Virus record (IMG/VR): IMGVR_UViG_3300039366_000282
Coordinates: 1-18,260 of that record
Strand: one strand, 5' to 3'
Source: a virus
Taxonomy: Duplodnaviria; Heunggongvirae; Uroviricota; Caudoviricetes
Length of the DNA: 18,260 nucleotides
The position numbers and the translations under genes are program-made. Below the pieces are notes generated by a model that searched no databases, was not told where the DNA came from, and saw nothing but the letters and a program-made list of their open reading frames with translations. Shown piece by piece: positions 3,299 through 16,287 of the stretch; position 1 is the first letter of the stretch; each line of letters starts with the position of its first letter.

Positions 3299-3325
3299 TT
3301 AGCCAGGTAACACAGTGTTATGACA

Positions 3326-3351
3326 GCCCGCCGGTTCAGGCGGGCTTTTTT
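3326..3351 (+). terminator. Rho-independent terminator after lom
   Basis: GCCCGCC-GGTTCA-GGCGGGC stem-loop followed by TTTTTT. Confidence 0.55.
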
Positions 3352-3362
3352 GTGGAGTGGAT

Positions 3363-5738
3363 ATGGCAGCAGTAAAAATCTCAGGTGTGCTGAAAGATGG
3401 TGCGGGAAAACCAATACAGAACTGCACTATTCAACTGAAGGCAAAGCGTAACAGCACCACGGTACTGGTGAACACGGTGGCCTCTGAAAATCCGGATGAA
3501 GCCGGGCGTTACAGCATGGATGTTGAGTATGGCCAGTACAGCGTTATCCTGCTTGTTGAAGGTTTTCCGCCTTCACATGCCGGAACCATTACCGTCTATG
3601 AAGGTTCCAGACCAGGTACGCTGAATGATTTTCTCGGTGCCATGACGGAAGATGATGTCATGCCGGAGGCATTGCGTCGTTTTGAGGAAATGGTGGAAGA
3701 AGCGGCACGCAACGCCGAAGCCGCCTCTCAGAGCGCAGCGGCGGCAAAGAAATCCGAAACTGCAGCGGCATCATCGAAGAACGCGGCGAAAACCTCAGAA
3801 ACGAATGCAGCTAATAGTGCACAGGCGGCAGCGACCTCACAGACTGCATCAGAAAACTCCGCGACAGCAGCCAAAAAATCAGAAACCAACGCGAAAAATA
3901 GCGAGACAGCCGCAAAGACGAGCGAAACCAACGCAAAGTCCAGCCAGACGGCAGCGAAAACCAGCGAAACGAATGCCAAAGCCAGTGAAACTGCGGCGAA
4001 AAGCAGTCAGGATGCAGCAGCCGAAAGCGAGAGCGCGGCAGCCGGTTCTGCGACTTCAGCTGCTGGATCAGCAACTGCTGCGGCTAACAGTCAGAAAGCA
4101 GCGAAGACGAGTGAAACTAACGCAAAGTCCAGCCAGACGGCAGCGAAGACCAGCGAAACGAATGCCAAAGCCAGCGAAACTGCGGCGAAAAGCAGTCAGG
4201 ATGCAGCAGCCGAAAGCGAGAGTGCTGCAGCTGGTTCTGCAAGCGCGGCTGCTGCTTCTGCCACTGCATCAGCTAACAGTCAAAAAGCAGCAAAAACCAG
4301 TGAAACCAACGCAAAGGTGAGCGAAACAGCGGCTGCGAACTCAGCGAAAGCATCGGCAGCAAGCCAGACGGCAGCTAAAGCAAGCGAAGATGCAGCCAGA
4401 GAGTACGCAAGCCAGGCTGCGGAGCCGTATAAATATGTCTTACAGCCGCTGCCTGATGTGTGGATACCATTTAACGATTCGCTGGATATGATTACGGGCT
4501 TTTCGCCGTCATATAAAAAGATTGTTATTGGTGATGATGAAATAACGATGCCTGGCGACAAGGTTGTTAAGTTTAAACGCGCATCGAAAGCAACCTATAT
4601 TAATAAATCTGGTGTGCTGACAGAGGCTGCCATTGACGAGCCACGGTTTGAACGTGATGGCCTGCTTATTGAGGGGCAAAGAACGAACTACATGCTCAAT
4701 TCGGAAAGCCCTGCCAGTTGGGGGCGATCGTCAAATATGGATGTTCCCGAAACCGGGACGGATAGTTTTGGTTTTACCTATGGAAAGTTTGTCTGTAACG
4801 ATTCTCTGATTGGGCAAACCTCAGCCATTAATATGGCATCAATTGCTGCAACAAAGTCAGTTGATGTCTCAGGCGATAATAAATACGTGACAACCTCATG
4901 TCGTTTTAAAACAGAACTGCAGGTAAGGTTGCGTATCCGATTTGATAAATATGACGGTAGCGCAACAACTTTTCTTGGTGATGTGTATATTGATACACAA
5001 ACGCTTGAAATTAATATGACAGGCGGCGCTGCCTCAAGGATTACAGCGAGAGTCAGAAAGGACGAAGTTATCGGATGGATTTTTGCAGAGGCAACAATTC
5101 AGGCAATTGATGGGGAGTTAAAAATAGGTTCTCAGATACAGTATTCTCCTAAGCAGGGCGGGGCAACCGTATCTGGTGACTATATTTATCTGGCCACCCC
5201 ACAAGTAGAAAATGGGCCTTGTGTATCATCTTTTATTATATCAGGAACGACGGCGGCGACCCGCGCAAGCGATATAGTCACAGTTCCCATTAAGAATAAT
5301 CTTTATAATCTTCCTTTTACGGTTCTTTGTGAGGTACATAAGAACTGGTATAAAACGCCAAATGCAGCACCGCGTGTTTTTGATACCGGCGGTCATCAAA
5401 CCGGAGCGGCTATTATTCTTGGCTTCGGTTCTTCAGCAGATTACGACGGATTTCCTTATTGCGATATTGGTGGGTCTAACAGACGGATAAACGAAAATGC
5501 ATCACTTGAAAAAATGGTTATGGGGATGCGTGTAAAGTCTGATCAGTCTACATGCGCAGTAAGTAACGGGCGTATATCCAGCGAAACAAAAACCACATGG
5601 TCCTGTATTCAGAACACCGCAATTATCCGTATTGGAGGCCAGACTACAGCCGGGTTACGTCATTTATTTGGTCATGTAAGGAATTTCAGAATATGGCACA
5701 AGGCATTGACTGATGCTCAGGTGGGGGAGTCAATCTAA
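3363..5738 (+). CDS. stf: Side tail fibre protein: lambda Stf-like N-terminus, heptad-repeat shaft, divergent AT-rich C-terminal domain
   Basis: N-terminus MAAVKISGVLKDGAGKPIQNCTIQLKAKRNSTTV... matches lambda Stf from memory; ATG at 3363 preferred over track GTG 3357 (GGAG 5 nt upstream); long Ala/Ser/Thr/Lys heptad region (KTSETNA/KSSQTAA...); C-terminal ~430 aa encoded by visibly more AT-rich DNA, ending in a LamG-like motif (..VRNFRIWHKALTDAQV..). Confidence 0.8.
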   Translation: MAAVKISGVLKDGAGKPIQNCTIQLKAKRNSTTVLVNTVASENPDEAGRYSMDVEYGQYSVILLVEGFPPSHAGTITVYEGSRPGTLNDFLGAMTEDDVMPEALRRFEEMVEEAARNAEAASQSAAAAKKSETAAASSKNAAKTSETNAANSAQAAATSQTASENSATAAKKSETNAKNSETAAKTSETNAKSSQTAAKTSETNAKASETAAKSSQDAAAESESAAAGSATSAAGSATAAANSQKAAKTSETNAKSSQTAAKTSETNAKASETAAKSSQDAAAESESAAAGSASAAAASATASANSQKAAKTSETNAKVSETAAANSAKASAASQTAAKASEDAAREYASQAAEPYKYVLQPLPDVWIPFNDSLDMITGFSPSYKKIVIGDDEITMPGDKVVKFKRASKATYINKSGVLTEAAIDEPRFERDGLLIEGQRTNYMLNSESPASWGRSSNMDVPETGTDSFGFTYGKFVCNDSLIGQTSAINMASIAATKSVDVSGDNKYVTTSCRFKTELQVRLRIRFDKYDGSATTFLGDVYIDTQTLEINMTGGAASRITARVRKDEVIGWIFAEATIQAIDGELKIGSQIQYSPKQGGATVSGDYIYLATPQVENGPCVSSFIISGTTAATRASDIVTVPIKNNLYNLPFTVLCEVHKNWYKTPNAAPRVFDTGGHQTGAAIILGFGSSADYDGFPYCDIGGSNRRINENASLEKMVMGMRVKSDQSTCAVSNGRISSETKTTWSCIQNTAIIRIGGQTTAGLRHLFGHVRNFRIWHKALTDAQVGESI
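3906..4283 (+). repeat. 189-bp (63-codon) near-identical in-frame tandem duplication inside the tail-fibre shaft
   Basis: acgcaaagtccagccagacggcagcgaa... occurs at 3931 and again at 4120 (period 189 bp) with only a few substitutions; partial further units flank it. Confidence 0.85.
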
Positions 5739-6019
5739 TGAAAGATTTAACACTCAAATTTCCCGACAGGGCCGACTTTTCGGCCTTTATGGAGAGCATT
5801 GGCTATTATGATGACGAGTTGATGCAGGATGATATTCTTATTGACGTGATAGGTAACGTGTACAAAGAAACCGGAGAACTGACTGAAGATGGCGAACCGG
5901 TATGTGTTAAGGAAGACGGATATTTTGTAAACGTGCGCATCATTAATGATTCGCAAATATCGTCATTATTCGATGAATACGTGGTTGCTGTTGAGCATCA
6001 ACTTCGTGGCTGGATGTGA
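5738..6019 (+). CDS. Hypothetical 93-aa acidic protein, translationally coupled to the tail-fibre gene
   Basis: ATG overlaps the stf stop (TAATG at 5736-5740); GGGGGAG 8 nt upstream; no family recognised. Confidence 0.5.
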   Translation: MKDLTLKFPDRADFSAFMESIGYYDDELMQDDILIDVIGNVYKETGELTEDGEPVCVKEDGYFVNVRIINDSQISSLFDEYVVAVEHQLRGWM

Positions 6020-6028
6020 GGAAGAAAA

Positions 6029-7069
6029 ATGGCTACATCGACAGTAATTCCTGATGACATCAAAACGCTAAAATCCGACGTTAGCAAATTAAAAAACGAT
6101 CAAGGAAGCTACGCAACAAAATTATATGTAGACAGCAAAGATGAAATCGTTGGTGACTGGTCTGCTTCATGGTATCAGCAGGTATTGCCAACTAGCGGAG
6201 CTATATTTGGGAGAAAACTCCGCTCAACTCACAGGACGGCAGGTGTTGAGGATGCGTATTGCGAACTATACCTCAAAAAATGGATAGACAGTCCAGGTAA
6301 CGCAATGGCGCGCCTTAACCTGAACGATAACGGGACAAACATTTGCTGGGACTTTACCAACCTTTATGGCGGTACGATGATTTTTCCCGGTGACAGCGGA
6401 TACCTCAAAATGGGTAACTGCCTTATGTCATACAGCAAGCGTGGAAGTAACGCGCTTATTAAATTTGATTACACCGACACATTACAGATCAAATATGCCA
6501 ATCATGGGTCAACCATGACATTAAACACACAGGGAACCGCTTATGCTGGTGTTACTGCTCAATTGTGGGGCAACACCAGCCGTCCTGTTGTTTATGAAGT
6601 CGGTGTTGATGGTGGCGCTTATATGTTCTATGCGCAGAAAAATACCGATAACACCTATATGTTAAGCGTTAATGGTGCATGTCATGCCACCGCATTTAAC
6701 CAGCATTCCGACCGGGATCTGAAAGACAACATTCAGGTGATCGATAATGCAACCGACCGCATCCGTAAAATGAACGGCTATACATACACGCTTAAAGAAA
6801 ACGGTATGCCCTATGCTGGTGTCATTGCACAGGAAGCTCTGGAAGCAATCCCAGAAGTTGTAGGTTCCGCAATGAAATATCAGGACGGTGCAAGCGGATC
6901 GGAAGGTGAAGAAGGTGAACGTTATTACACAGTAGATTATTCTGGTGTTACTGGCTTGCTTGTTCAGGTAGCCAGAGAGTCAGACGACAGAATAACAGCA
7001 CTGGAAGAAGAAAACGCAGAATTAAGACAAAGATTATCTGCAATTGAGGCGGCGCTTGCGTCTAAATAA
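6029..7069 (+). CDS. Tail fibre/tailspike-like protein with C-terminal intramolecular chaperone (peptidase S74-type) domain
   Basis: RBS GAGGAAG before ATG; C-terminal region contains ..NQHSDRDLKDNIQVIDNATDRIRKMNGYTYTLKENG..YAGVIAQEALEAIPEVV.. followed by a coiled-coil tail (ALEEENAELRQRLSAIEAA), matching the SD-x-R-LK-x-NI self-cleaving chaperone signature of phage fibres as recalled. Confidence 0.65.
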   Translation: MATSTVIPDDIKTLKSDVSKLKNDQGSYATKLYVDSKDEIVGDWSASWYQQVLPTSGAIFGRKLRSTHRTAGVEDAYCELYLKKWIDSPGNAMARLNLNDNGTNICWDFTNLYGGTMIFPGDSGYLKMGNCLMSYSKRGSNALIKFDYTDTLQIKYANHGSTMTLNTQGTAYAGVTAQLWGNTSRPVVYEVGVDGGAYMFYAQKNTDNTYMLSVNGACHATAFNQHSDRDLKDNIQVIDNATDRIRKMNGYTYTLKENGMPYAGVIAQEALEAIPEVVGSAMKYQDGASGSEGEEGERYYTVDYSGVTGLLVQVARESDDRITALEEENAELRQRLSAIEAALASK

Positions 7070-7075
7070 TATTAA

Positions 7076-7098
7076 GGGGCCGAGCGCCCCGTTTTATT
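7076..7098 (+). terminator. Rho-independent terminator after the fibre module
   Basis: GGGGC-CGAGC-GCCCC hairpin followed by GTTTTATT, 7 nt after the stop at 7069. Confidence 0.55.
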
Positions 7099-7111
7099 GG
7101 GTAGGATGAAA

Positions 7112-7399
7112 ATGGATATAACACCTTTTCTTCATGCGCTTTGTGCTGTGGCTGCGCAGGTACTGGTTGGTTTTTTTACCGGAAACTGGGCTTACGGGGC
7201 GATAGCCGGTTGTACATTCTTCATTGCGCGGGAACACACCCAGGCAGAATATCGCTGGATTGAAATGTTCGGGCATGGCAAGCGGATTAACATGCCGTGG
7301 TGGGGCGGTTTTGATCCACGTGCATGGGATGTGGCAAGCCTGATGGATTTTGCTGTGCCGGTGGTGGCGTGTCTGCTGATCTGGATGTTGATCCGTTAA
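7112..7399 (+). CDS. Small hydrophobic (predicted membrane) protein, ~96 aa, unknown function
   Basis: ORF with two strongly hydrophobic stretches (ALCAVAAQVLVGFFTGNWAYGAIAGCTFFIA and FAVPVVACLLIWMLI); AGGA 5 nt upstream of ATG 7112 (track start 7097 is TTG; 7106 is an alternative ATG). Confidence 0.45.
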   Translation: MDITPFLHALCAVAAQVLVGFFTGNWAYGAIAGCTFFIAREHTQAEYRWIEMFGHGKRINMPWWGGFDPRAWDVASLMDFAVPVVACLLIWMLIR

Positions 7400-7747
7400 A
7401 TATAAAAAGTAAAAAGCCGCAGTAACTTGTCATGATAGGATACTGCGGCTGGCTGGTTAACTTTCGATAGTGCGAGTATTGAATGATTTCCAGCCGTTAC
7501 CGATTTTATATAACTGCAGTGGAATTATTCAACACACAGGCAAAACGGAATAAGCTGAGAAAAAAGCGTGCTTACCCAATCTGGGGTAAATCACGTCTGA
7601 ATGACACCTGAAAACAGGTGGTGGCCTCAAGAAGGCTTGGAATATTCTTCTTTAATGTTATGTAATTTATTGATTTTTCGTGTACGATTTTAAGACATTT
7701 ATTCCAAGAAAAATTTTTAACTCTTTGATTTTTCGACTCTGTATCAT

Positions 7748-7809
7748 CGGTCTCGAAAACCGGAGTAGGGGCAACTCTACCGGGGGTTCAAATCCCCCTC
7801 TCTCCGCCA
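7748..7809 (+). tRNA. Partial tRNA-Ser(CGA) (serU-type), 3' 62 nt only, without 5' acceptor/D-arm; att-core duplicate at the prophage boundary
   Basis: Anticodon stem-loop CCGGT-CTCGAAA-ACCGG (anticodon CGA), long variable arm, T-arm GGGGG-TTCAAAT-CCCCC, 3' acceptor strand TCTCTCC + G + CCA; no matching 5' strand (GGAGAGA...) upstream; matches E. coli serU 3' portion from memory. Confidence 0.75.
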
Positions 7810-8087
7810 ATCATTCAACAAAATCAATCACTTACAAAGCATTTTTGATTTTGTCGTGCATAAATCCCTGCATTAAAATTCCTTTCTCTCGCTCAATTTT
7901 TCTTACTACTGATGCTGTTTTTTACCATTTTGCCGCGCGTCGGGCATCCACTTTTATGCTCTCGAGTTCACACTCTTAACAACAACTTAGCCATTCCCCC
8001 GTCTCTGATGACAAAACAGTTGAACTTCAATTGTTCCAAACGGATCCTGTGAAGATATATCAAAGGAAATGGATTGTTGGAGGATGG

Positions 8088-8924
8088 ATGAAAAGAAGTG
8101 AAATCAGGAAAGCACTGGAAGCATGGTTTGATGTGGAACGCTATGAGGCGATAGAGAAACTCACCTTACAGCAGTTTTATGTTGAGGTTGAGCGGCGCAT
8201 CTTGGCTTACAGAATGTTGTTGAGCCGGAACACCATACCTACCTTTAACCGATTAATGCTGGATGATTACCGCAACAAGATCCTCAGCGGTGAAATCTTT
8301 TTCAGTGGTGATACTGAGACCATTGGATATGAGCTTGCCAGAACCTATGCGGTAAACCCTACGACAAGAAGCCACGCGCAATTTTATGCGAAAACTCTGT
8401 CATTAACCGAAGCCACGCCTGAACTCTCTGGGTTAAGCCAGTCTGAATTTCTGTCCGAATATCTGAAAGAGACATCCCTTAATAATCTTTCACGCATTAC
8501 TGTCGATATTCATCTGGAAGAAGCATCAACCGAAGAGATCATTGAACATCTGAAAGTGCTGATCCCTCAATGGAAGAGGCAGCTTAAGATGACGTCTCCA
8601 GCTCCAAGAGAGTATCGTTTCGGCAAAAGCACGTTCAGAAAAATTATTGAATATCGTCTTATCCCGATGATGGACCTGATCTTCTGGGGAGAAGATAACG
8701 GCATTAAAATCCCGCTTTCACTGATTTCCTCGTTGCTTCATGAGGACAGCGACAACGATCGTGATGAAGGAATGCTCAAGGCAACAGATTACCCGTTAGC
8801 AATGGCTTTTCTGACGGATGCGAGCTATCTGAAATCGCTTGAAGATTACATGATGGAAAACAACCACTTGAAAGACTCCCCTGTTGAAAAGCATGTAGAA
8901 GACGACAGGAATAAGAAAAAATAA
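8088..8924 (+). CDS. Hypothetical protein (278 aa from ATG 8088)
   Basis: Long ORF; track start 8031 is TTG; GGAGGA lies just upstream of ATG 8088; no family recognised. Confidence 0.5.
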   Translation: MKRSEIRKALEAWFDVERYEAIEKLTLQQFYVEVERRILAYRMLLSRNTIPTFNRLMLDDYRNKILSGEIFFSGDTETIGYELARTYAVNPTTRSHAQFYAKTLSLTEATPELSGLSQSEFLSEYLKETSLNNLSRITVDIHLEEASTEEIIEHLKVLIPQWKRQLKMTSPAPREYRFGKSTFRKIIEYRLIPMMDLIFWGEDNGIKIPLSLISSLLHEDSDNDRDEGMLKATDYPLAMAFLTDASYLKSLEDYMMENNHLKDSPVEKHVEDDRNKKK

Positions 8925-9140
8925 GCCAAGTAAAAAGGGTTACGTTCGCTCCGTGCGAACGTGATCGCATCCAGTGTCAACCGTTATCTTTCCATCCGTG
9001 CCCCTTCGAATTTTTCAAAAAAAACTTATTTGAACGTCCCTAAATTGTCATAAGCAAAATCGCTATCATTGTTCACGTCGAAACAACATAGAGAAAAGCG
9101 AAATCTCATAGAGATTACTTACAATAATAGAGGACAGACA

Positions 9141-9359
9141 ATGAAAGAAAATAATGAAACCAGCGTAAAACGATTTATCCGCGTTCCTGATGTTTTAAAT
9201 CGAGTGGGATTTAGTCGCACGACTTTATATGAACGTATTAAGGAAGGAAACTTTCCAGACAGAGTAAAAATAGGGCCAAGATGTGTCGCCTTTGTCGAAA
9301 GTGAGATTGATGAATGGATTGAAGCGGCTATTCGAAACTCACGCCAGAACGCAGCATAA
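9141..9359 (+). CDS. AlpA-family phage/island transcriptional regulator (small HTH)
   Basis: 72-aa product ..FIRVPDVLNRVGFSRTTLYERIKEGNFPDRVKIGPRCVAFVESEIDEWIE.. matches the AlpA/prophage CP4-57 regulator pattern from memory; RBS AGAGGA before ATG 9141. Confidence 0.7.
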   Translation: MKENNETSVKRFIRVPDVLNRVGFSRTTLYERIKEGNFPDRVKIGPRCVAFVESEIDEWIEAAIRNSRQNAA

Positions 9360-9440
9360 AAACAGAAACAAGATCTCGTGTCGAACAGATATCTGTTCGC
9401 TCAGGGCATCTTATTATCCTAAACAATAATGGAGAAAAAT

Positions 9441-9731
9441 ATGAAGATAGAGCTTATTACGACAAAACAGTTTATTGAACAAGCCGAATGTTATTTCAGG
9501 CGCTATATGGACGGATTGCGGAGGAATGCACCAGATGATTTTTATTATTTTCTCAACAATAAATACAATATGAATGACATTATGGAAAGTATCATTAAAA
9601 AAACGAGATATCATTTTTACGATGACACAGAAGAAAACCAAAGGAATCGGATTTATGGAGAAGTAAGCCACTGTAAGGTAAAACAACACCTTCGTCAGCT
9701 TTGGATTATCTATAAGTGTGTATACCGCTAA
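9441..9731 (+). CDS. Hypothetical small protein (96 aa)
   Basis: ORF with GGAGA 5 nt upstream of ATG 9441 (track start 9429 also possible); AT-rich; no recognised family. Confidence 0.4.
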   Translation: MKIELITTKQFIEQAECYFRRYMDGLRRNAPDDFYYFLNNKYNMNDIMESIIKKTRYHFYDDTEENQRNRIYGEVSHCKVKQHLRQLWIIYKCVYR

Positions 9732-9783
9732 TATTTATACAAATATTTTGCTATTCCAATATTAAACTAAAGAGGAAATAAAA

Positions 9784-10080
9784 ATGAATACATTTAAAAA
9801 TAAAACTACTAAAATCTTTTATGTTGTGTCCTTGCATATCTATGCGGAGCTTTTTAACTCAAAGGATAAAACGACCAGTAATATGATTATAACGCATGTA
9901 ATGGATCATGAGTTTGTTTGTAAGCTAATCGATCTGGCGATGAGAAATGCTGAAAAGCATCTTCTGAAAAAAGCATGGAAAAAGAACGCGGCTGAAAAAC
10001 TATCTGAGGTGGATTTTAAAGAGGTTAGGCAGGCATTAGCCAAAATGCACTACACTGTTCTGGCGGAATCAATATGTTGA
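9784..10080 (+). CDS. Hypothetical small protein (98 aa)
   Basis: ORF preceded by strong RBS AAAGAGGAAATAAAA-ATG; no recognised family. Confidence 0.4.
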   Translation: MNTFKNKTTKIFYVVSLHIYAELFNSKDKTTSNMIITHVMDHEFVCKLIDLAMRNAEKHLLKKAWKKNAAEKLSEVDFKEVRQALAKMHYTVLAESIC

Positions 10081-10152
10081 TATGTTCTGGTGTCTATCTG
10101 CCCCTTCTTGGGGCTGATAACAAATATTATTTTTCTATCCAAGGAGCAAAAA

Positions 10153-10395
10153 ATGACTGATGAATTTCATGTGATGTATATGTATAAAAAAATCCAAGCG
10201 GAAGCCGTAACTACTGACATCAAAACACTTGAACAGCTTTTGAAAAAGTTCAGGAGCGTTGTCAACGAACGTCGTGAAGAATACTATCAGGAGATTGGTG
10301 AGAAAAAAGCGCATAAGTTGAAAATGAAAAGATTACAAAGAATGCTTGAGAAAATGGCGTGTGACCGAGTCTCGCCAGAAGATCTCATTGACTGA
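10153..10395 (+). CDS. Hypothetical small charged/helical protein (80 aa)
   Basis: RBS AAGGAG 6 nt upstream of ATG 10153 (track ORF starts earlier at 10090 without an RBS); product lysine/glutamate-rich. Confidence 0.4.
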   Translation: MTDEFHVMYMYKKIQAEAVTTDIKTLEQLLKKFRSVVNERREEYYQEIGEKKAHKLKMKRLQRMLEKMACDRVSPEDLID

Positions 10396-10443
10396 TAAGT
10401 GTTCTGTATAATAACTTATCTATATAAAAACATGGAGGTGGTT

Positions 10444-10833
10444 ATGGGCTGGGAGCTTCACATAGTAAGAACGGAACATTGGTTCGATAGCGCAAGTGTT
10501 CCAATCAGTAGTGAAGAATGGCTCCAGCTTGTTAATGATGATAAAGAACTATCCATAGATAACAAGAACGGTGATTTTTTCGCCATATGGAGTGGTCAAA
10601 GTGAACTCGATGAACCTTGGCTTGACTGGAGTGATGGAAGAATTTCAACAAAACATCCTGACGAAGCCCTTTACTGTAAAATGTTGCAGATAGCTGAGAA
10701 GCTACATGCTGTAGTCGTTGATGAGGATGATCACAAATATTCGCTACCAAGTGACCTGATGAATCCTTCATGGGCGAATTCATCACTGACTGATAAAAAA
10801 CAAACTTTATGGAAAAGGTTGTTTTCAAAATAG
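10444..10833 (+). CDS. Hypothetical protein (129 aa, Trp/Asp-rich)
   Basis: RBS GGAGGTGG before ATG 10444 (MGWELHIVRTEHW...); track ORF starts at 10399. Confidence 0.45.
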   Translation: MGWELHIVRTEHWFDSASVPISSEEWLQLVNDDKELSIDNKNGDFFAIWSGQSELDEPWLDWSDGRISTKHPDEALYCKMLQIAEKLHAVVVDEDDHKYSLPSDLMNPSWANSSLTDKKQTLWKRLFSK

Positions 10834-11139
10834 TTTTGTCAAGTATTCAGGGAATAGCAATGGCACGCCGAATTGATCTTCATGAAATTGTTAACGCTCT
10901 CAACGGGAGCTTTGTTAGTCGAAACAACGACTTTAGAAGATACGGGGCTATTGGGCAGTTAAAATCATTGGCTATCTGTATTAGCTCAGACTTGATCTGG
11001 TGGTTTTCACTGGTAGCACACTATCAAATCTGACAGTCTGCTATGAGCGAGGAGCGGAAGTTAGTACCTCCGATGCTATAGCGCAGCGTTCTTAATTATG
11101 TAAAAATATTCTACCATTCAAGTAAAGTAAGTGAAAACA

Positions 11140-12057
11140 ATGGAATTTAAACTTGATCTAAAATCCAATGCTTTAGATAGTTTTAATGAAGCCATCAAAA
11201 AATTCCAGCAAGGAGAAAATGGAGATTATAAAGCTTTCAAGTTTGCTATACTACATTTGTCTCATTGTTTTGAGTTGACGTTGAAAATGTATATTCAAAC
11301 ATTAGACGAAAACTTGATTTTTTCAAAATGCTACAGAGCAGTAATAGAGCGTGCCAAAAGTGACAAAGTCAATCTTATTGAAGCTTTTTATAAAATGGAG
11401 GCTGAAGAATTCGACTTTGAAGAACTTATTAAAGGACATAAAAATCCTCATACTATTACTTTGGATCAAGCAATATCGATAGCTACACATGAAAAGTGTA
11501 GCATAACCTCAGTGGACTTAGTTGATAAAGAGTTACTAGATGATATCGCTTGGATGAAAGATCTTAGAAATTCAATTGAGCATTACGAATTCTCGTTTAC
11601 TATTAAATATGTTCGTCTGGCAATGGGGCGTTTGGTCAGAGGGTTGGCTGAGTTCTCTGATATATTTGGTTTATACGATCTAGATAAAGAAGTTTCTAAG
11701 GAAATATCTAATTCCTATAATATACTTTCTGACGAATATGAGCATAATGTTCATGAAGGTTATCTTGATGTAGCTGATGCTAGAAAAGCAGCATTTCTTG
11801 GGGTTAGACCAAAGTTTTTTGAGTTAGTTAATTGGAAAGAATATATCTGCGATTACTGTGGTCATGAGACAATGATTCAAAATAACGATTCTACTTCAGG
11901 ATATCGTTGTACGTATTGCGGTGCCGAAGACTCAGGCTCAATTGAAGTCACATGTGATGTTTGTGGTGCTGAATGGCCTGAAGAGGAAATGAGTTCTTGG
12001 CTTGGGGAGGGGACTAACACTTGTCCTGACTGTAGAGATATTAGCAACAAACCATGA
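11140..12057 (+). CDS. HEPN-like (R-x4-H) domain protein with C-terminal four-CxxC zinc-ribbon region; candidate abortive-infection/RNase effector
   Basis: 305 aa from ATG 11140 (track GTG 11131 alternative); helical N-terminal region ending in ..WMKDLRNSIEHYEF.. (R-N-x3-H at nt 11566-11583); C-terminus carries CDYC, CTYC, CDVC, CPDC pairs; RBS weak. Confidence 0.55.
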   Translation: MEFKLDLKSNALDSFNEAIKKFQQGENGDYKAFKFAILHLSHCFELTLKMYIQTLDENLIFSKCYRAVIERAKSDKVNLIEAFYKMEAEEFDFEELIKGHKNPHTITLDQAISIATHEKCSITSVDLVDKELLDDIAWMKDLRNSIEHYEFSFTIKYVRLAMGRLVRGLAEFSDIFGLYDLDKEVSKEISNSYNILSDEYEHNVHEGYLDVADARKAAFLGVRPKFFELVNWKEYICDYCGHETMIQNNDSTSGYRCTYCGAEDSGSIEVTCDVCGAEWPEEEMSSWLGEGTNTCPDCRDISNKP

Positions 12058-12326
12058 CTAAGATTAATCCTTGATTGAAGATGCATTCTTGTCCGCCTCT
12101 CATGTTTTATAATGTATAATGCTTCTGGCATTATAGCGTGAGAGGCGGAAGATATTGTTAACCGAATTGGCAAGCCTAATTTATAACATTATTGCTAATA
12201 TGGAGGAATAGATTTCTGTTCATCCGCTTACATGGAGTATATACTGTAAACCTTACATCCTTTGAATAAACGGGATGGGAGGCGTCCATCCTGTTTAAGA
12301 TCTCCATCATAAAGATTAAAAATTTC

Positions 12327-12851
12327 TTATTCTTCTGAAGTAAGCATCTTCTCCTGATGGGGGTGATACTTATATGCATAATTAAAGAGGGTCAGATCTA
12401 GTTCAAACGTTTCTCGCATACCATCCATCGTTACGGACGTATTCAGTAATCCACGACGGGCCAGAGATTCTACACCCGGTTCAGGATCATCAAGCCTATT
12501 CATTTGTCCCCATGTCATAACAGAACCACCATGCGTCACAAAGTGCATGACTACTTCTTTTTCTCTTCCAGTCAGAGAATTATAAAGCGTTGCCAGTCGT
12601 TTTTCTGCAACTGCCTCTCCCTTGCGGGTAATAATTCGCAGATATAATCCTCCCGCAATAATCTTTACAACCGGAAAAATAATAACAAAAGAAAACAGAG
12701 TCAGTACATAATCGCGAAGAATAAGATAACAGGTAACTCCTGCGATTCCGGAGACAAATATTGCGATGTTAATGCTGAAGTCTTTCTCCGAATAAACACG
12801 ATCAAACATTTTTTCAAGAAATTCTGTCACGATTTCATTCCTTGTTAACAC
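12327..12851 (-). CDS. Hypothetical membrane protein (two predicted TM helices near N-terminus, soluble C-terminal domain)
   Basis: Minus-strand ORF; hydrophobic segments FSINIAIFVSGIAGVTCYLIL and LTLFSFVIIFPVVKIIAGGLYL; start ambiguous (GTG 12851 or ATG 12809, neither with a clear SD). Confidence 0.45.
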   Translation of the reverse strand: MLTRNEIVTEFLEKMFDRVYSEKDFSINIAIFVSGIAGVTCYLILRDYVLTLFSFVIIFPVVKIIAGGLYLRIITRKGEAVAEKRLATLYNSLTGREKEVVMHFVTHGGSVMTWGQMNRLDDPEPGVESLARRGLLNTSVTMDGMRETFELDLTLFNYAYKYHPHQEKMLTSEE

Positions 12852-13283
12852 TAAAGATGCTCGAGTGGGTATGAATATACCGCAATAGTGCGGGAGGATT
12901 TCATTAGTGTCCCATCAAAATCTGGCTTGAACTGGCTATTGAGTCGCTAATCATTATAAATTTTAGCTGTCAATACTACCATAATAAATAGCAGCATTCT
13001 CAAGAGTTGTGGCGAACGCAACAAAACTCTCCCCAACAACCCGCTTGTAAAGATGCTTTTATACTTCTAACGTCCGCTCTTGGCACGGAGTTGCCTGTCA
13101 AATTAGGTTTAGATCTGTGCGATAGCTGTGTCAGGTCAAATCTGAGCTAATAGAGCTATCGATACCGGCGTCACTTCGATGAGGTTTTCTCTCATAGCCG
13201 AGAGCGACACCCTCTCTTCGCACGTAGGATTTTCTTTGGGAGAGAACAAAAACCGCCAAATTTGGTTGACGGCTTTATTGTGA

Positions 13284-13688
13284 TCAGAGCGCGAAGTCTT
13301 CCAGCGTTTTACCAGCTTCGATAGCAGCAGCGATCGCTTTAGGAGTACGGCCTTGACCTGTCCAAGTCTGCTCATTACCATTTTCATCTGTATATTTGTA
13401 TTTAGCAGGACGAGGAGCACGAGTTGATTTGGCTTTAGGCTGGGATGAACTAACAGCAGCAAGGAGTTCTGCCGGATCAATGCCATCTTCTAACAGTTTC
13501 TGGCGGAAGGCTTCCAGTTTAGCCTGACGTTCTTCTTGTTCTTTACGGGCTGAATTTTCTTCCTCACGGCGATCTTCAACGACAGCAGAGAGCTTTTCCA
13601 GCATCTCTTCCAGAGTTGTCAGATCTGTTTCACGAGCATGTGCGCGAAGTGTACGAATATTGTTCAGTGCCTTGAGAGCTTCACTCAT
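13284..13688 (-). CDS. H-NS family nucleoid-associated protein (island-encoded H-NS/StpA paralog)
   Basis: 134-aa product [28 protein letters not shown].. with C-terminal DNA-binding motif [12 protein letters not shown] and ..[12 protein letters not shown]..; matches E. coli H-NS/StpA from memory. Confidence 0.85.
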
Positions 13689-13844
13689 AGTATGTCATCC
13701 GGTGTTTTAAAATGGGCGATTAATAAAAATAATGCTTACGGTGATGTTGGAAAAATCAAAAAAACAGTCAGTAAATAATATAGTAAACATTATCGTTTAA
13801 GCAATCTAATACATCTCATTTCACACGAATAACATAGGAGTGCT

Positions 13845-14324
13845 TTAAAGAGACATTTTCCTGCGCTTCTGGCTTGATGGCTCGAACTCTGACGAGATGC
13901 GAGATAGCTGGTCAAGACTGTATTCAATTGAACGCTGGAACTCAACAGCGGCTTCTGTGCGTTGTTTTATGACCAAGGCTACTATTTCTTCATCACTCTT
14001 TTCTGAAATAGCCTTACGGTATAACACGCGTTCGTTAAATAAATCGAGATTTCCTGATGATTTGGCTGATGTGTTAGCTTTTGAACTGCTGATAGGATTT
14101 AGCTCATCAATAAAGTATTCAATAAGCGATTCTCTCTTTTTATCCAGCCTGCGAAGTTCGGTATGTGCGGACTTAAATTTCTGAGCTTTTATCAATGGAA
14201 TATCATCAGAACGCAGTTTGCGATATTCATTTCTGTATTCTTCTATCGGAATATGGTTTTTTAGTTCTTTGACTGTATTTACGTATTCGATTAAATCACT
14301 GTTGTCTGTTTTTACTTTTCTCAT
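13845..14324 (-). CDS. Hypothetical protein (159 aa, charged/helical)
   Basis: Minus-strand ORF with GAGG 9 nt upstream of ATG 14324; no recognised family. Confidence 0.45.
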   Translation of the reverse strand: MRKVKTDNSDLIEYVNTVKELKNHIPIEEYRNEYRKLRSDDIPLIKAQKFKSAHTELRRLDKKRESLIEYFIDELNPISSSKANTSAKSSGNLDLFNERVLYRKAISEKSDEEIVALVIKQRTEAAVEFQRSIEYSLDQLSRISSEFEPSSQKRRKMSL

Positions 14325-14600
14325 AAGAAATACCTCGTAGATAAAATAGTTGATATATTTATATTACGAGATATGGTGCAGGTGTCAAATTTATGGGGCT
14401 GGGCGCTATTTTTGTATTTTACTTTTAGCTACTGTTTCTTTTGAGAAGAACCGAGAGTTAAATGTGCCGTTCTTAGTCAGTATCTTAGCGTCCACTAATA
14501 ATTTTAACCGTTCTTCATCGGTTCTCTTAGCCGCTAATTTTTTCACCTTTTTTGTCAGATCTTCAATATCTATTATTTACATCCTTATCTTTTAAGTTGT

Positions 14601-15401
14601 TTAAACAATCTGAGGTGTTTTATACTGTTCAAAAATAAGATTTCCTGAATATGTATAAATTTCTATTTTTCCTACTTTACCATCAGTGCCTTTTATCGAG
14701 AAACGAATTAATCTTTCATTATAATATTTTTCTAACAAGTCTGGTCGTTCAGTAAAATATCTTGATTTTGTTGAGCGATCTTTCAGATAGTCGCAGCTTG
14801 AACAAACCTGCTTTTTGAAATCCTTCTCAGATAAACCACTTTCTTTTATTTTTAAAGAAATAAAAGCCTTTAAAGGTCGTTCATATTCATCTCTTTCTTT
14901 TGCTTTGCGTATTTGTTCTTCTTTCTTGCGCTGTTCTTCAATACGGTAAAGTCTGCCTTGTTCTTCCTGCGCTCGTATTATATCCTCTTGAATCATTTTA
15001 CTGATGATTGAGGCAGGAACAACACTGATACCTTCAGACCACCCCTGATAAGGATTATTGTTTTGTATATTTCGGACTGTAGCAGATATTCTGTCTATAT
15101 CCAGTTCTTTATCAAAGGAAACAATGCGTTGTCTGTTTTCTTTTGATATGAGCTTAGCCGTGTTTACCGGGGATTCCAGACCCTTTAATTTGAATGTAGC
15201 TACGGCACTGTTGCGACTTCTATAATATAATGCTTGTTTCTTATCTCCAATATAACATTCAAGGTAAGAGAAAATCTTAAACTCCTGAATGCCAAATGTT
15301 TCCTCAAGCATGGTCATCTGCTCAGCCAATATATTTAGTATATCACTCTTGGATAGTTTTTCGTGGAGCTTAATCTCAAGCGAACCGGGTAGTTTTTTCA
15401 T
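14601..15401 (-). CDS. Hypothetical protein (266 aa), second gene of minus-strand operon
   Basis: Minus-strand ORF; AAGGA 7 nt upstream of ATG 15401; 27-bp gap to the upstream gene; central lysine/glutamate-rich helical segment; no recognised family. Confidence 0.5.
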   Translation of the reverse strand: MKKLPGSLEIKLHEKLSKSDILNILAEQMTMLEETFGIQEFKIFSYLECYIGDKKQALYYRSRNSAVATFKLKGLESPVNTAKLISKENRQRIVSFDKELDIDRISATVRNIQNNNPYQGWSEGISVVPASIISKMIQEDIIRAQEEQGRLYRIEEQRKKEEQIRKAKERDEYERPLKAFISLKIKESGLSEKDFKKQVCSSCDYLKDRSTKSRYFTERPDLLEKYYNERLIRFSIKGTDGKVGKIEIYTYSGNLIFEQYKTPQIV

Positions 15402-15428
15402 TGTTATTTCCTTGTTGTTGTTATTTTA

Positions 15429-16163
15429 TCAGGATACTTTCTGCATATGAGAGTCGGCGTCAACAGCGTTTCTTCTTGCTTCCTCATTTTCCTTTGTTCT
15501 TTTATATACTTTTCGTGGTTTATCAATATGTATGCTGTTATTTGTATTAGGAACAGCATTATTCTTTTTCTTCTTACTGAAAACAAATGCGTCAGTATAG
15601 ATTTCTTTGGTCTCAGTTTCTAAGGATAGGGTTCTTCTTTCACTTTTTGACATAGCTGAATAACTTTCTGGATACTGTTCTATTTCTGCGCAAAGATTGC
15701 GAGCGTTGCTCAACTGTTCTTTACGTTTCTGATCCAGTTGGTGACTCATTCCTTTAGCGAAAATGTTAGAGTTGATATAGAGATGACCATGATGCTCGAC
15801 GAGTATTCCTTTCTGTCTGAGTTTTTTAAAAATGTTAGACATATTACCGGAAGCGATGTTCAGTGCTTTACACAGCGATGATTGCGAAAGATTGATCAGA
15901 TTTCCAAACTCCATATACTCCAGAATATAGGTTAATACACGGAATTCATTCTTGGATATGTCAAGATCAGAGAAGACACGAAAGTTGGAAGTAAAAGCAA
16001 ATACATAAGGTTGTGAAAACGATATAGCTTTATCTTCCTCAGAAGAAATAACTGTCGTTGATTTTATTTCTTTGTTTTGTAGCAAGCGTCTTGCGATATC
16101 AATCTTTTGTTCTGTAGTTAATGATTCAAATAAGTGTAATAGATCAGCATCTGGTGTATTCAT
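15429..16163 (-). CDS. Winged-helix DNA-binding protein, RepL-like (putative replication initiator or regulator)
   Basis: 244 aa from ATG 16163 (track start 16226 would lie upstream of the predicted promoter); segment ..ISKNEFRVLTYILEYMEFGNLINLSQSSLCKALNIASGNMSNIFKKLRQKGILVEHHGHLYINSNIFAKG.. resembles RepL-type wHTH proteins as recalled; repeated palindromes upstream. Confidence 0.5.
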   Translation of the reverse strand: MNTPDADLLHLFESLTTEQKIDIARRLLQNKEIKSTTVISSEEDKAISFSQPYVFAFTSNFRVFSDLDISKNEFRVLTYILEYMEFGNLINLSQSSLCKALNIASGNMSNIFKKLRQKGILVEHHGHLYINSNIFAKGMSHQLDQKRKEQLSNARNLCAEIEQYPESYSAMSKSERRTLSLETETKEIYTDAFVFSKKKKNNAVPNTNNSIHIDKPRKVYKRTKENEEARRNAVDADSHMQKVS

Positions 16164-16197
16164 ATTATTCTCTCTTATTATTTTTGTTATATATATT

Positions 16198-16226
16198 TTA
16201 ATACTATGCAAAAAAGTGAAAGTCAA
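16198..16226 (-). promoter_or_regulatory. Putative sigma70 promoter for the minus-strand operon (TTGACT-17-TATTAA)
   Basis: On the minus strand, -35 TTGACT (16221-16226) and -10 TATTAA (16198-16203) are separated by 17 nt, about 35 nt upstream of ATG 16163. Confidence 0.4.
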
Positions 16227-16287
16227 TAGTAGAACTATAAATAAAATAGGAAGTATATTCTTATGACAATGTTATATGTTAAAAAAA

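What the first reader, a model, noticed from the sequence alone, without database searches (positions are those of the whole stretch)
9441..10833. Cluster of four small co-directional ORFs with strong RBS downstream of the AlpA-like gene
Four ORFs of 80-129 aa with good Shine-Dalgarno motifs and 48-81-bp spacing lie between the AlpA-like regulator and the HEPN-like gene; none matches a family I recognise. Small proteins at such positions are often regulators, anti-defence proteins or antitoxin-like partners, and one could be the cognate immunity or partner of the HEPN-like protein.
Basis: inference. Interest (0 to 1): 0.45.

Follow-up and report, generated by a model that had tools for sequence, protein, structure and literature searches.

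The report
Known island module containing hnsT
The four small genes are real. They belong to an already described E. coli genomic island (the serU island): one is the known H-NS antagonist H-NST, the other three are conserved proteins of unknown function, and none is the partner of the neighbouring HEPN-like gene.

Summary
The four ORFs (9441-9731, 9784-10080, 10153-10395, 10444-10833, + strand) are real genes. RefSeq annotates them at these coordinates, each has a Shine-Dalgarno site, and all are under purifying selection. They lie in a 37%-GC serU-type genomic island (related to ROD21/EARL islands), directly downstream of the AlpA-type excision factor.

- **ORF3** is hnsT, the 80-aa truncated H-NS antagonist characterised in EPEC and UPEC. 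This allele keeps Ala16, Leu30, Arg60 and Arg63.
- **ORF1 and ORF2** (c2415/c2414 in CFT073, SEN1997/SEN1996 in ROD21) are uncharacterised. I find they are distant paralogues of one small island-specific family, present in two to four tandem copies in the islands examined, after the excision-factor gene.
- **ORF4** is an optional acidic alpha/beta protein with a confident model but no significant fold match. It follows hnsT in about 40% of E. coli islands and in Brenneria. It also occurs alone in other genera, as a class-1 integron cassette, and near an Rhs toxin.
- **The HEPN-like gene** is unrelated hot-spot cargo. It is in 24 of 5426 genomes, against about 510 for ORF1-3, and it travels with the convergent 167-aa gene.

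Verdict: a known module, one known regulator and three conserved unknowns. The HEPN-partner idea is not supported.

The parts
7748..7809 (+). The 3' 62 nt of tRNA-Ser (serU), i.e. the att direct repeat that marks the left end of the island. To its left is lambdoid prophage tail DNA at 50% GC.
   Evidence: Identity to the serU-island genomes starts at 7748. In L001 the complete tRNA-Ser corresponds to window 7720-7809. ARAGORN finds no complete tRNA in the window. Sequence read. GC content is 50.4% left of the junction and 37.0% right of it.
8088..8924 (+). DUF6387 gene, the roughly 840-bp gene of unknown function that accompanies the excision factor in EARL/serU islands (SEN1999 homologue).
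   Evidence: Pfam PF19924, E = 8.2e-52. Described in PMC6035254 and PMC3198454 Table 1.
9141..9359 (+). AlpA-family recombination directionality factor (SEN1998 homologue).
   Evidence: Pfam PF05930, E = 9.4e-19. Excision-factor function shown for SEN1998 in PMC8844411.
9441..9731 (+). ORF1. 96 aa, pI 9.0. Equivalent to c2415 and SEN1997. Member of a small island-specific family and a distant paralogue of ORF2.
   Evidence: only 16 representatives among 1.84 billion. Paralogy. Locus-tag equivalence.
9784..10080 (+). ORF2. 98 aa, pI 9.3. Equivalent to c2414 and SEN1996. Same family as ORF1. It sits immediately upstream of hnsT in all eight non-Brenneria island types examined that carry hnsT.
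   Evidence: (dN/dS 0.07-0.16).
10095..10119 (+). GC-rich palindrome or hairpin TATCT-GCCCC-TTCTT-GGGGC-TGATA, 15 nt after the ORF2 stop codon. Possibly a terminator, attenuator or mRNA-stabilising stem; function not shown.
   Evidence: The 15-nt core is exact in every fetched locus that has ORF2, except L021, which has a single C-to-T change that would keep a G-U pair. It occurs once per locus and is absent elsewhere. The spacer folds at -21.2 kcal/mol, z = -2.6.
10153..10395 (+). ORF3 = hnsT, encoding H-NST. This is H-NS truncated to its N-terminal oligomerisation domain and acts as a dominant-negative H-NS antagonist.
   Evidence: PF22470 above threshold and no PF00816 domain. 91% identical to the E2348/69 allele and 94% to the CFT073 allele. 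A16, L30, R60 and R63 are present. Literature.
10444..10833 (+). ORF4. 129 aa, pI 4.7. Alpha/beta protein of unknown function and an optional member of the module.
10896..10917 (+). Hairpin GCTCTCAACGGGAGC followed by TTTGTT, a possible weak terminator after ORF4. It is shared only with the closest island type.
   Evidence: scan; present in L022, absent in L020, L021 and Brenneria.
11140..12830 (.). Context, not part of the module. A two-gene cargo cassette: the HEPN-like gene (11140-12057 +, with an RNSIEH motif) and a convergent 167-aa membrane protein gene (12327-12830 -).
   Evidence: (PADLOC candidate PDC-S64, 1.6e-16).
13284..13688 (-). Context. hfp/hnsB, the full-length island-encoded H-NS paralogue, opposite in orientation to hnsT.
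   Evidence: PF22470 plus PF00816. Literature.

Best explanation
**What it is.** The cluster is the conserved accessory block that follows the excision-factor gene at the tRNA-proximal end of a serU-type genomic island. This island type is a relative of the ROD21-like 'EARL' islands of Enterobacteriaceae. The gene order is att - DUF6387 - AlpA excision factor - ORF1 - ORF2 - hnsT - ORF4, then a variable cargo slot, then the oppositely oriented full-length H-NS paralogue hfp.

**ORF3.** It encodes H-NST, consisting of only the N-terminal coiled-coil oligomerisation domain of H-NS. From published work on near-identical alleles, it forms mixed oligomers with host H-NS that lack a DNA-binding domain. 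These poison H-NS filaments and bridges and so relieve silencing of AT-rich DNA. It also binds some regulatory DNA itself. This allele carries Ala16, so it is of the active (EPEC) type rather than the inactive Val16 (CFT073) type.

**ORF1 and ORF2.** They are two diverged copies of one small, basic, probably all-helical protein family that is confined to these islands.

**ORF4.** It is an acidic, self-contained alpha/beta protein, most likely a protein-binding module.

**Shown versus inferred.** Shown: gene identity, conservation, synteny, the ORF1/ORF2 paralogy, and independence from the HEPN-like gene. Taken from the literature: the H-NST mechanism. Inferred only: that the six genes are co-transcribed, and that ORF1, ORF2 and ORF4 act, like H-NST, as host-directed factors helping the island to be expressed or established.
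For: **Island identity.**
- Window 7748-18260 is 100% identical to serU-adjacent islands in 10 complete genomes.
- The island is 37% GC.
- CFT073 and E2348/69, the strains in which H-NST was characterised, have the same DUF6387-AlpA-ORF1-ORF2-hnsT order.
- The ROD21 table equates SEN1997/SEN1996 with c2415/c2414.

**H-NST.**
- PF22470 at 46.5 bits with no C-terminal domain.
- Published EPEC hnsT primers match the ends of ORF3.
- 91-94% identity to characterised alleles, with A16, L30, R60 and R63 present.
- Function is described in PMC3897749, PMC7074111 and PMC5647153.

**Coding status.** dN/dS is well below 1 for all four ORFs.

**ORF1/ORF2 paralogy.**
- The ORF1-family HMM and the ORF2-family HMM each hit the same 108-aa ORF of a Yersinia-type island, at E = 2.1e-6 and 1e-5, in a database of 725 six-frame ORFs.
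- Iteration from either start converges on 22-25 ORFs, all lying between the AlpA gene and hnsT. The next unrelated ORF scores E > 0.1.
- A control search with ORF4 does not drift.
- Shuffle z-scores are 10.5, 8.0 and 5.2. The alignment is colinear.

**Modularity.** The excision factor and DUF6387 differ strongly between serU-type and asnW-type islands (67% and 40% aa identity), while ORF1, ORF2 and hnsT stay at 84-97%.

**Possible operon.** The scan reports no terminator-like site from the AlpA gene through ORF4, and only one promoter-like site on the + strand there, inside hnsT.
Against: - No expression data were available, so co-transcription with the excision factor is unproven.
- A conserved GC-rich hairpin after ORF2 could split the block into two transcripts.
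- Nothing assigns a biochemical function to ORF1, ORF2 or ORF4. There are no Pfam, NCBIfam, PADLOC or PDB relatives. The ORF2 model is unusable (pLDDT 51).
- ROD21 has ORF1 and ORF2 but no hnsT listed. ORF4 occurs alone in other genera. So the four genes are not an obligate functional unit.
- Direct profile-profile comparison of ORF1 with ORF2 is not significant. Their homology rests on an intermediate sequence.
Confidence: 0.85

Rival explanations
1. One reading: one of the small ORFs is the cognate antitoxin or immunity partner of the downstream HEPN-like protein.
For: Physical proximity only. ORF4 ends 306 bp upstream of the HEPN-like gene, on the same strand. HEPN toxins commonly have small partners (general knowledge).
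Against: - The HEPN-like gene is in 24 of 5426 genomes, against 212-521 for the ORFs.
- Fourteen of those 24 have the HEPN-like gene outside this island. In the two inspected, it is paired with the convergent 167-aa gene and has none of the four ORFs beside it.
- The slot it occupies holds other cargo in sister islands: a Ser/Thr kinase, DUF6602, DUF6404, a PIN protein, or SLATT plus a nucleotidyltransferase.
- None of the ORFs matches a known antitoxin family.
Confidence: 0.03
2. ORF1, ORF2 and/or ORF4 are anti-defence or establishment proteins, for example inhibitors of restriction or other immunity. On this reading they are expressed together with the excision factor when the island excises and enters a new host, by analogy with the small-ORF arrays in plasmid leading regions and phage early regions.
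For: - They form a co-directional array of small AT-rich ORFs next to the att site and excision factor, with variable copy number and content between islands. There are two paralogues here, three ORF1/ORF2-family copies plus a 78-aa ORF in the Yersinia-type island, and four small ORFs (two of them recovered as family members) in Brenneria.
- ORF1 evolves faster than the others, with dN/dS up to 0.52.
- ORF4 is acidic, with pI 4.7, and is independently mobile. It is an integron cassette in one plasmid and a lone gene in several other genera.
Against: - No similarity to any known anti-defence family.
- No homologue of ORF2 or ORF4 in 50,697 phage records.
- None of the E. coli matches is on a plasmid record of the RefSeq E. 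coli set.
- ORF2 is very strongly conserved (dN/dS about 0.1), unlike typical arms-race proteins.
Confidence: 0.2
3. ORF4 is an orphan immunity-type or inhibitor protein that binds and neutralises a toxin or other protein unrelated to the HEPN-like gene. It would resemble the immunity genes that accumulate downstream of polymorphic toxins.
For: - A 32%-identical homologue (E = 2e-9) lies three genes downstream of an Rhs/YD-repeat toxin in Paenibacillus. That toxin's C-terminus resembles the EC869-type CDI nuclease.
- The conserved core shows no catalytic-looking motif.
- The gene is autonomous and mobile.
Against: - Only one toxin-linked example, and it is not the gene immediately after the toxin.
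- All fold matches are weak. Foldseek finds nothing at E <= 0.001.
- No Pfam Imm family matches.
- In the other contexts examined no toxin gene is evident next to it.
Confidence: 0.12
4. ORF1 and ORF2 are Hha-like co-modulators that bind H-NS, Hfp or H-NST and tune silencing.
For: They are small (11-12 kDa), basic (pI 9.0-9.3) and predicted helical. They are encoded beside two H-NS-family genes. Plasmids such as R27 also encode H-NS and Hha paralogues together (general knowledge).
Against: - No similarity to Hha: no PF05321 hit at E <= 1 and hhalign probability 0.2%.
- No similarity to the H-NS N-terminal domain.
- ROD21 keeps ORF1 and ORF2 without hnsT.
Confidence: 0.1
5. Some of the ORFs are not real genes but chance reading frames in AT-rich DNA.
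For: They are short, and three of them have no annotated function.
Against: dN/dS is 0.05-0.52 for all four. Full-length homologues exist across genera at 50-97% aa identity. Shine-Dalgarno sites are present. RefSeq annotates them.
Confidence: 0.01

Closest known systems
H-NST of EPEC E2348/69 (island IE3) and UPEC CFT073/536 (serU island), described by Williamson & Free 2005 and Levine et al. 2014
   Same: ORF3 is 80 aa and 91% (EPEC) or 94% (CFT073) identical. It has the same domain content: the H-NS N-terminal domain only. The flanking genes are the same. A16, L30, R60 and R63 are conserved.
   Different: It differs by a few substitutions (T2, V19, I23 and others). It carries Ala16 like the active EPEC protein, although it sits in a serU-type island like the inactive Val16 CFT073 protein. 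The activity of this allele has not been tested.
SEN1997/SEN1996 of Salmonella Enteritidis island ROD21, and c2415/c2414 of the CFT073 serU island
   Same: These are orthologues of ORF1 and ORF2, with the same position directly after the excision-factor gene. Published identity between ROD21 and CFT073 is 95%. Window versus CFT073 is 93% and 95%.
   Different: The literature lists them only as hypothetical proteins. In ROD21 they are followed by a SLATT plus nucleotidyltransferase cargo and no hnsT is listed. That they are paralogues of each other is a new observation made here.
[quoted passage not shown] 2018
   Same: An excision factor plus a roughly 840-bp gene next to att. Low GC. A full-length and a truncated hns paralogue in opposite orientation. 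A RepL/SEN1990-family gene.
   Different: This island is inserted at serU, not at an Asn-tRNA gene. The literature treats the serU island as a relative with a different integrase. The integrase end lies outside the window.
SirA (4tps) and the ZipA C-terminal domain (1f47): small alpha/beta protein- or peptide-binding domains
Phage-encoded H-NS inhibitors T7 gp5.5 and T4 Arn (recalled from general knowledge; gp5.5 is also mentioned in PMC3897749)
   Same: Small acidic proteins of mobile elements that target H-NS. ORF4 is acidic (pI 4.7) and is encoded next to an H-NS antagonist.
   Different: No sequence or fold similarity was found. This is an analogy, not a tested relationship.

Membership tests
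H-NST (truncated H-NS antagonist) | About 80 aa, homologous to the N-terminal dimerisation/oligomerisation domain of H-NS | tested here: met
   PF22470, E = 3.6e-12, 46.5 bits against a cut-off of 24.5, covering residues 1-78. 91% and 94% identical to the E2348/69 and CFT073 proteins.
H-NST (truncated H-NS antagonist) | No C-terminal H-NS DNA-binding domain | tested here: met
   No PF00816 hit, and the protein ends at residue 80. The island's full-length paralogue has both domains.
H-NST (truncated H-NS antagonist) | Residues required for activity: Ala16, Leu30 and Arg60 (and Arg63) | tested here: met
   All four are present. Their importance is described in PMC3897749 and PMC7074111. CFT073 has Val16.
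H-NST (truncated H-NS antagonist) | Forms hetero-oligomers with H-NS and derepresses H-NS-silenced promoters (proU, bgl, LEE) | not testable with these tools
   Requires pull-down and reporter assays.
serU island / EARL (ROD21-like) genomic islands | Insertion at a tRNA gene with a direct repeat of its 3' end | tested here: met
   The 3' 62 nt of tRNA-Ser lie at 7748-7809, at the GC-content break. This is the serU site, not the Asn-tRNA site of EARL in the strict sense.
serU island / EARL (ROD21-like) genomic islands | AlpA-type excision factor with an adjacent gene of about 840 bp and unknown function, next to one att site | tested here: met
   PF05930 and PF19924 hits at 9141-9359 and 8088-8924. 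Described.
serU island / EARL (ROD21-like) genomic islands | Tyrosine integrase at the other end of the island | not tested
   The other end of the island lies outside the window. It was not followed in L001.
serU island / EARL (ROD21-like) genomic islands | Low G+C (35.7-39.2% for EARL; 38% reported for the serU island) | tested here: met
   37.0% for 7748-18260, against 50.4% for the flank. Literature values.
Toxin-antitoxin or immunity partner of the HEPN-like gene | Partner gene is co-inherited with the toxin gene wherever the toxin occurs | tested here: not met
   24 genomes have the HEPN-like gene, but only 10 have it next to the ORFs. In the two other copies inspected it travels with the 167-aa gene instead.
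Toxin-antitoxin or immunity partner of the HEPN-like gene | Partner matches a known antitoxin family (for example an MNT nucleotidyltransferase) or is translationally coupled to the toxin gene | tested here: not met
   No such family hit. There is a 306-bp gap containing a hairpin between ORF4 and the HEPN-like gene.
Hha/YmoA family (considered for ORF1 and ORF2) | Sequence or profile similarity to Hha | tested here: not met
   No PF05321 hit at E <= 1.
Polymorphic-toxin immunity proteins (considered for ORF4) | Encoded immediately downstream of a toxin domain, or matching a described Imm family | tested here: inconclusive
   One distant homologue lies three genes after an Rhs toxin. No Imm family hit. 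The other contexts show no toxin.
Thioredoxin superfamily (the RefSeq label on some ORF4 homologues) | Thioredoxin fold with a CxxC motif, or an HMM match | tested here: not met
   No Pfam or NCBIfam hit even at E <= 10. ORF4 has a single Cys and no CxxC. No thioredoxin appears among the fold matches.

The most novel reading that the evidence does not exclude
The island may carry a multi-part host-takeover kit rather than a single anti-silencer. On this reading the ORF1/ORF2 family and ORF4 would be new classes of small proteins. With H-NST, they would act on nucleoid proteins or host defences when the excision factor is expressed. ORF4 would be an acidic decoy or binding protein, useful enough on its own to have been captured as an integron cassette and scattered across Proteobacteria and Firmicutes.
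Probability: 0.12. Interest if true: 0.6.

Novelty: already known. Interest (0 to 1): 0.28.

Why it matters
The locus itself is ordinary: it is a described island, and its best-understood gene is already characterised.

Three points are still worth following up:
- **Active-type H-NST allele.** This serU-type island carries the Ala16 form, which could affect H-NS-silenced virulence and accessory genes in the host strain.
- **ORF1 and ORF2.** They are present in about 10% of complete E. coli genomes and in ROD21-type islands of Salmonella, Klebsiella, Citrobacter and Yersinia. They form a single uncharacterised family tightly linked to the excision factor. They are the obvious candidates for unexplored steps in island excision, establishment or silencing control.
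- **ORF4.** It defines an unannotated protein family with a confident fold model and unusually promiscuous genomic contexts, including an integron cassette.

Separately, the slot between hnsT/ORF4 and hfp is a cargo hot-spot that collects defence-like genes.

Tried and rejected
1. **ORF2 as a ribbon-helix-helix regulator** (from reading the sequence). The AF2 model is all-helical with pLDDT 51, which is unusable. PDB profile searches find nothing. Not supported.
2. **Direct ORF1-versus-ORF2 profile comparison.** hhalign probability is 0.5%. Homology appeared only through an intermediate sequence and iterative HMM searches.
3. **ORF1/ORF2 family versus Hha and versus the H-NS N-terminal domain.** No relation.
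5. **ORF1 profile against 1.84 billion representative proteins.** Only 16 hits, and the single long one is a spurious TPR kinase.
6. **Rfam over the whole window.** No family.
7. **Promoter and terminator scan.** Fewer promoter-like sites than in shuffles, so it is uninformative about operon structure.
8. **The unannotated 57-aa ORF at 10860-11033.** Its start codon is AAG in the closest sister island, so it is not conserved as coding.
9. **Phage records.** No ORF2 or ORF4 homologue. The strong PHROG hits to ORF1 and ORF2 are to families of unknown function and add nothing about function.
10. **The RefSeq label 'thioredoxin domain-containing protein' on some ORF4 homologues.** No HMM, motif or fold support.
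11. **Literature search for c2412-c2415 and SEN1996/SEN1997.** No functional data beyond table entries.
Full report
**Observation.** The window is E. coli DNA. Positions 7748-18260 are 100% identical to a chromosomal island that lies next to tRNA-Ser (serU) in ten complete genomes.

- ORF1, 9441-9731, 96 aa
- ORF2, 9784-10080, 98 aa
- ORF3, 10153-10395, 80 aa
- ORF4, 10444-10833, 129 aa

Each has a good Shine-Dalgarno site: GGAG, AAGAGGAA, AAGGAG and GGAGGTGG. The spacers are 81, 52, 72 and 48 bp.

All four are under purifying selection when compared with relatives from other E. coli islands, Enterobacter, Brenneria and more distant genera. dN/dS is 0.21-0.52 for ORF1, 0.07-0.16 for ORF2, 0.06-0.39 for ORF3 and 0.05-0.36 for ORF4. 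The ORFs are genes.

**What the locus is.** The island has 37.0% G+C against 50.4% for the lambdoid prophage tail genes to its left. The junction at 7748-7809 is the 3' 62 nt of tRNA-Ser, i.e. the att repeat.

The gene order is as follows:
- att
- DUF6387 (8088-8924)
- AlpA-family gene (9141-9359)
- ORF1, ORF2, ORF3, ORF4
- HEPN-like gene (11140-12057)
- convergent 167-aa gene (12327-12830, - strand)
- full-length H-NS paralogue (13284-13688, - strand)
- DUF4756
- a 266-aa gene
- RepL/SEN1990-family gene

This is the published serU island of uropathogenic E. coli. [quoted passage not shown] Features of these islands:
- The AlpA protein is the recombination directionality factor.
- A gene of about 840 bp and unknown function accompanies it.
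- Many islands carry a full-length and a truncated hns homologue in opposite orientation (PMC6035254, PMC7074111, PMC8844411, PMC2814080).

CFT073 (serU island) and E2348/69 (island IE3) both show the order DUF6387-AlpA-ORF1-ORF2-ORF3.

**ORF3 is hnsT.**
- It matches the H-NS N-terminal domain model PF22470 above the curated threshold (46.5 bits against 24.5).
- It has no C-terminal DNA-binding domain, whereas the 134-aa paralogue at 13284-13688 has both domains.
- The published cloning primers for EPEC hnsT match its two ends almost exactly.
- It is 91% identical to the E2348/69 protein and 94% to the CFT073 protein.

Published work on these alleles shows several things:
- H-NST antagonises H-NS-mediated repression of proU and bgl by forming mixed oligomers.
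- It induces LEE expression in EHEC.
- It binds LEE regulatory DNA.
- It depends on Ala16, Leu30, Arg60 and Arg63.
- The CFT073 protein, with Val16, is inactive.
- Truncated H-NS peptides of this kind block DNA bridging in vitro.

The window's allele has Ala16, Leu30, Arg60 and Arg63. I therefore predict it is of the active type. That is an inference from sequence.

**ORF1 and ORF2.** They have no Pfam, NCBIfam or PADLOC match, and only unannotated PHROGs. Their homologues are confined to Enterobacterales:
- ORF1: E. coli, Salmonella, Citrobacter (including C. rodentium), Klebsiella and Kluyvera.
- ORF2: E. coli, Salmonella, Klebsiella, Raoultella and Yersinia.

A profile of ORF1 searched against 1.84 billion representative proteins finds only 16 sequences. 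In the literature they appear only as hypothetical proteins: c2415/c2414 in CFT073 and SEN1997/SEN1996 in ROD21. Searches for those tags gave no functional data.

One new point emerged. In a Yersinia-type island the excision-factor gene is followed by ORFs of 108, 78 and 96 aa, then ORF2, then hnsT. In Brenneria it is followed by four small ORFs, then hnsT and ORF4. The evidence that these belong to one family is as follows:
- The ORF1-family HMM and the ORF2-family HMM each hit the 108-aa ORF directly, at E = 2.1e-6 and 1e-5, in a database of all 725 six-frame ORFs of the fetched loci.
- Iterating from either start converges on 22-25 ORFs. Every one lies between the AlpA gene and hnsT. No unrelated ORF comes in.
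- A control search started from ORF4 does not drift.
- Shuffle tests give z = 10.5 for ORF2 against the 108-aa ORF, 8.0 for the 108-aa against the 96-aa ORF, and 5.2 for ORF1 against the 108-aa ORF.
- The alignment is colinear over the whole length, with shared N-terminal, central and C-terminal motifs.

So ORF1 and ORF2 are distant paralogues of one small, basic (pI 9.0 and 9.3) family that forms tandem arrays after the excision-factor gene. A direct ORF1-ORF2 profile comparison alone is not significant. The ORF2 structure model is too poor to use (pLDDT 51, all-helical). I found no relation to Hha or to the H-NS N-terminal domain.

**ORF4.** This protein is acidic (pI 4.7). It gives a confident model (pLDDT 85.8, pTM 0.78) with the order strand-helix-four strands-helix-strand and a disordered C-terminal tail.

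The best fold matches are weak:
- Foldseek against PDB and against viral models gives nothing at E <= 0.001.

ORF4 is optional. It is in 212 of 5426 complete E. coli genomes, against 505 for hnsT and 521 for ORF1+ORF2. It is absent from the CFT073 island, truncated in E2348/69 and reduced to a remnant in Enterobacter.

Where an island has it, it follows hnsT at about 50 bp, in E. coli and in Brenneria. It also occurs on its own in unrelated contexts:
- In Photorhabdus, Xenorhabdus, Erwinia and Pantoea chromosomes.
- On Pantoea megaplasmids.
- At 28-33% identity in three further places:
  - the first cassette of a class-1 integron on a P. aeruginosa plasmid, there with a signal peptide;
  - three genes downstream of an Rhs toxin in Paenibacillus;
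  - after a two-component system in Variovorax.

None of these homologues has a Pfam match. The conserved core shows no catalytic-looking motif. I read ORF4 as a self-sufficient binding protein of unknown target. The immunity-like and decoy-like readings stay open, at low probability.

**Relation to the HEPN-like gene.** The HEPN-like gene carries an RNSIEH motif, and its N-terminus matches the PADLOC candidate PDC-S64. It is found in only 24 of 5426 genomes.
- Ten of these are the genomes that share this exact island.
- Two of the other fourteen were inspected. In both the gene lies next to the pao operon and an e14-like remnant. It is accompanied by the same convergent 167-aa gene and by none of the four small ORFs.

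In sister islands the slot between hnsT/ORF4 and hfp holds various cargo:
- a Ser/Thr kinase plus a hypothetical gene;
- a DUF6602 gene;
- a DUF6404 gene;
- a PIN-domain gene;
- a 169-aa gene;
- nothing at all;
- in ROD21, a SLATT plus nucleotidyltransferase pair.

The HEPN-like gene is therefore hot-spot cargo with its own partner. The proposal that one of the small ORFs is its cognate immunity or antitoxin is not supported.

**How the block is organised.** The excision factor and DUF6387 proteins differ strongly between serU-type and asnW-type islands (67% and 40% identity), while ORF1, ORF2 and hnsT remain 84-97% identical. The block therefore moves between att/excision-factor backbones as a module.

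ROD21 keeps ORF1 and ORF2 without hnsT. C. rodentium-type islands have ORF1-ORF2-hnsT and then hfp directly. The four genes are thus not an obligate unit.

The pattern scan reports no terminator-like site from the AlpA gene through ORF4, and only one promoter-like site on the + strand there, inside hnsT. That scan is weak evidence. A GC-rich palindrome lies 15 nt after the ORF2 stop codon (10095-10119). Its 15-nt core is conserved in every fetched locus that has ORF2, across genera, with one C-to-T change in L021 that would keep a G-U pair. It may be a terminator, an attenuator or a stabilising stem.

**Verdict.**
- The cluster is real, but it is an already described island module.
- One gene is a characterised regulator, and three are conserved proteins of unknown function.
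The specific HEPN-partner idea is not supported.
- What is new here is modest: the ORF1/ORF2 paralogy, the wide and odd distribution of the ORF4 family, and the Ala16 (active-type) hnsT allele in a serU-type island.

Noticed in passing
window 7400-7809: The window holds only the 3' 62 nt of tRNA-Ser (7748-7809), preceded by lambdoid prophage tail genes (gpJ, Lom-like, tail fibre; 1-7400; 50% GC). In the ten genomes with the identical island, the left flank is instead mtfA plus the complete tRNA. This suggests a prophage and the island sit in tandem at serU in the source genome.
   Followed up: partly
window 11140-12830; L002 5081-6771; L003 4081-5771: The HEPN-like gene (RNSIEH motif; C-terminal CxxC zinc-ribbon-like repeats; PADLOC candidate PDC-S64) and the convergent 167-aa protein, which appears to have two transmembrane segments, move together as a 1.7-kb cassette. 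The cassette is found in this island's cargo slot and beside paoABCD (one plasmid-borne copy). It may be a two-gene defence or toxin system.
   Followed up: partly
window 10834-13283 and the equivalent slot in L018-L022, L004, L027 and L032: The stretch between hnsT/ORF4 and the oppositely oriented hfp gene is a variable cargo hot-spot. In different islands it holds the HEPN-like pair, a Ser/Thr kinase, DUF6602, DUF6404, a PIN-domain gene, a 249-aa gene, a 169-aa gene or nothing. In ROD21 it holds a SLATT plus nucleotidyltransferase pair.
   Followed up: partly
window 10095-10119: GC-rich palindrome TATCTGCCCCTTCTTGGGGCTGATA just after ORF2. Its 15-nt core is conserved in every fetched locus with ORF2, although the rest of the spacer varies and carries insertions. 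One locus (L021) has a C-to-T change that would keep a G-U pair in RNA. No function is known.
   Followed up: partly
L028 3947-4309 (P. aeruginosa plasmid CP080283): A 33%-identical relative of ORF4 is the first gene cassette of a class-1 integron, lying between intI1 and aacA4. It carries an N-terminal signal peptide that the enterobacterial proteins lack.
   Followed up: partly
L029 99-4345 (Paenibacillus cellulosilyticus): A 32%-identical relative of ORF4 lies three genes downstream of an Rhs/YD-repeat protein. That protein's C-terminus weakly matches the EC869-type CDI nuclease toxin domain. This is a hint of an immunity-like role, from a single case.
   Followed up: partly
L014 2677-7381 (Erwinia rhapontici): Here the ORF4 homologue directly follows an 842-aa protein whose N-terminus looks Hsp70-like by eye, and a 578-aa protein. 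Neither neighbour was analysed.
   Followed up: no
L032 3506-3922 and plasmid-labelled record CP088875: Some ORF4 homologues are labelled 'thioredoxin (domain-containing protein)' in public records. I found no HMM, motif or fold support for this label.
   Followed up: yes
window 10860-11033: An unannotated 57-aa ORF follows ORF4. Its ATG is AAG in the closest sister island, so it is probably not a gene. The 217 bp after ORF4 are nevertheless shared with that island type and contain a hairpin plus TTTGTT.
   Followed up: yes
window 10198-10200 (codon 16 of hnsT), compared with L018: This serU-type island encodes Ala16 in H-NST, the residue needed for activity. The serU island of CFT073 encodes the inactive Val16. 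serU islands therefore differ in whether their anti-silencer should work.
   Followed up: partly
L008, L016, L007, L019 and L017 (ORF4 homologues): Several ORF4 copies are split by frameshifts or truncated: Pantoea varia, Photorhabdus noenieputensis, E2348/69 and Enterobacter adelaidei. This is consistent with a dispensable accessory gene.
   Followed up: partly
window 15429-16226 (- strand): RepL/SEN1990-family gene. The ROD21 homologue is reported to be a winged-helix regulator rather than a replication protein (PMC10655114).
   Followed up: no
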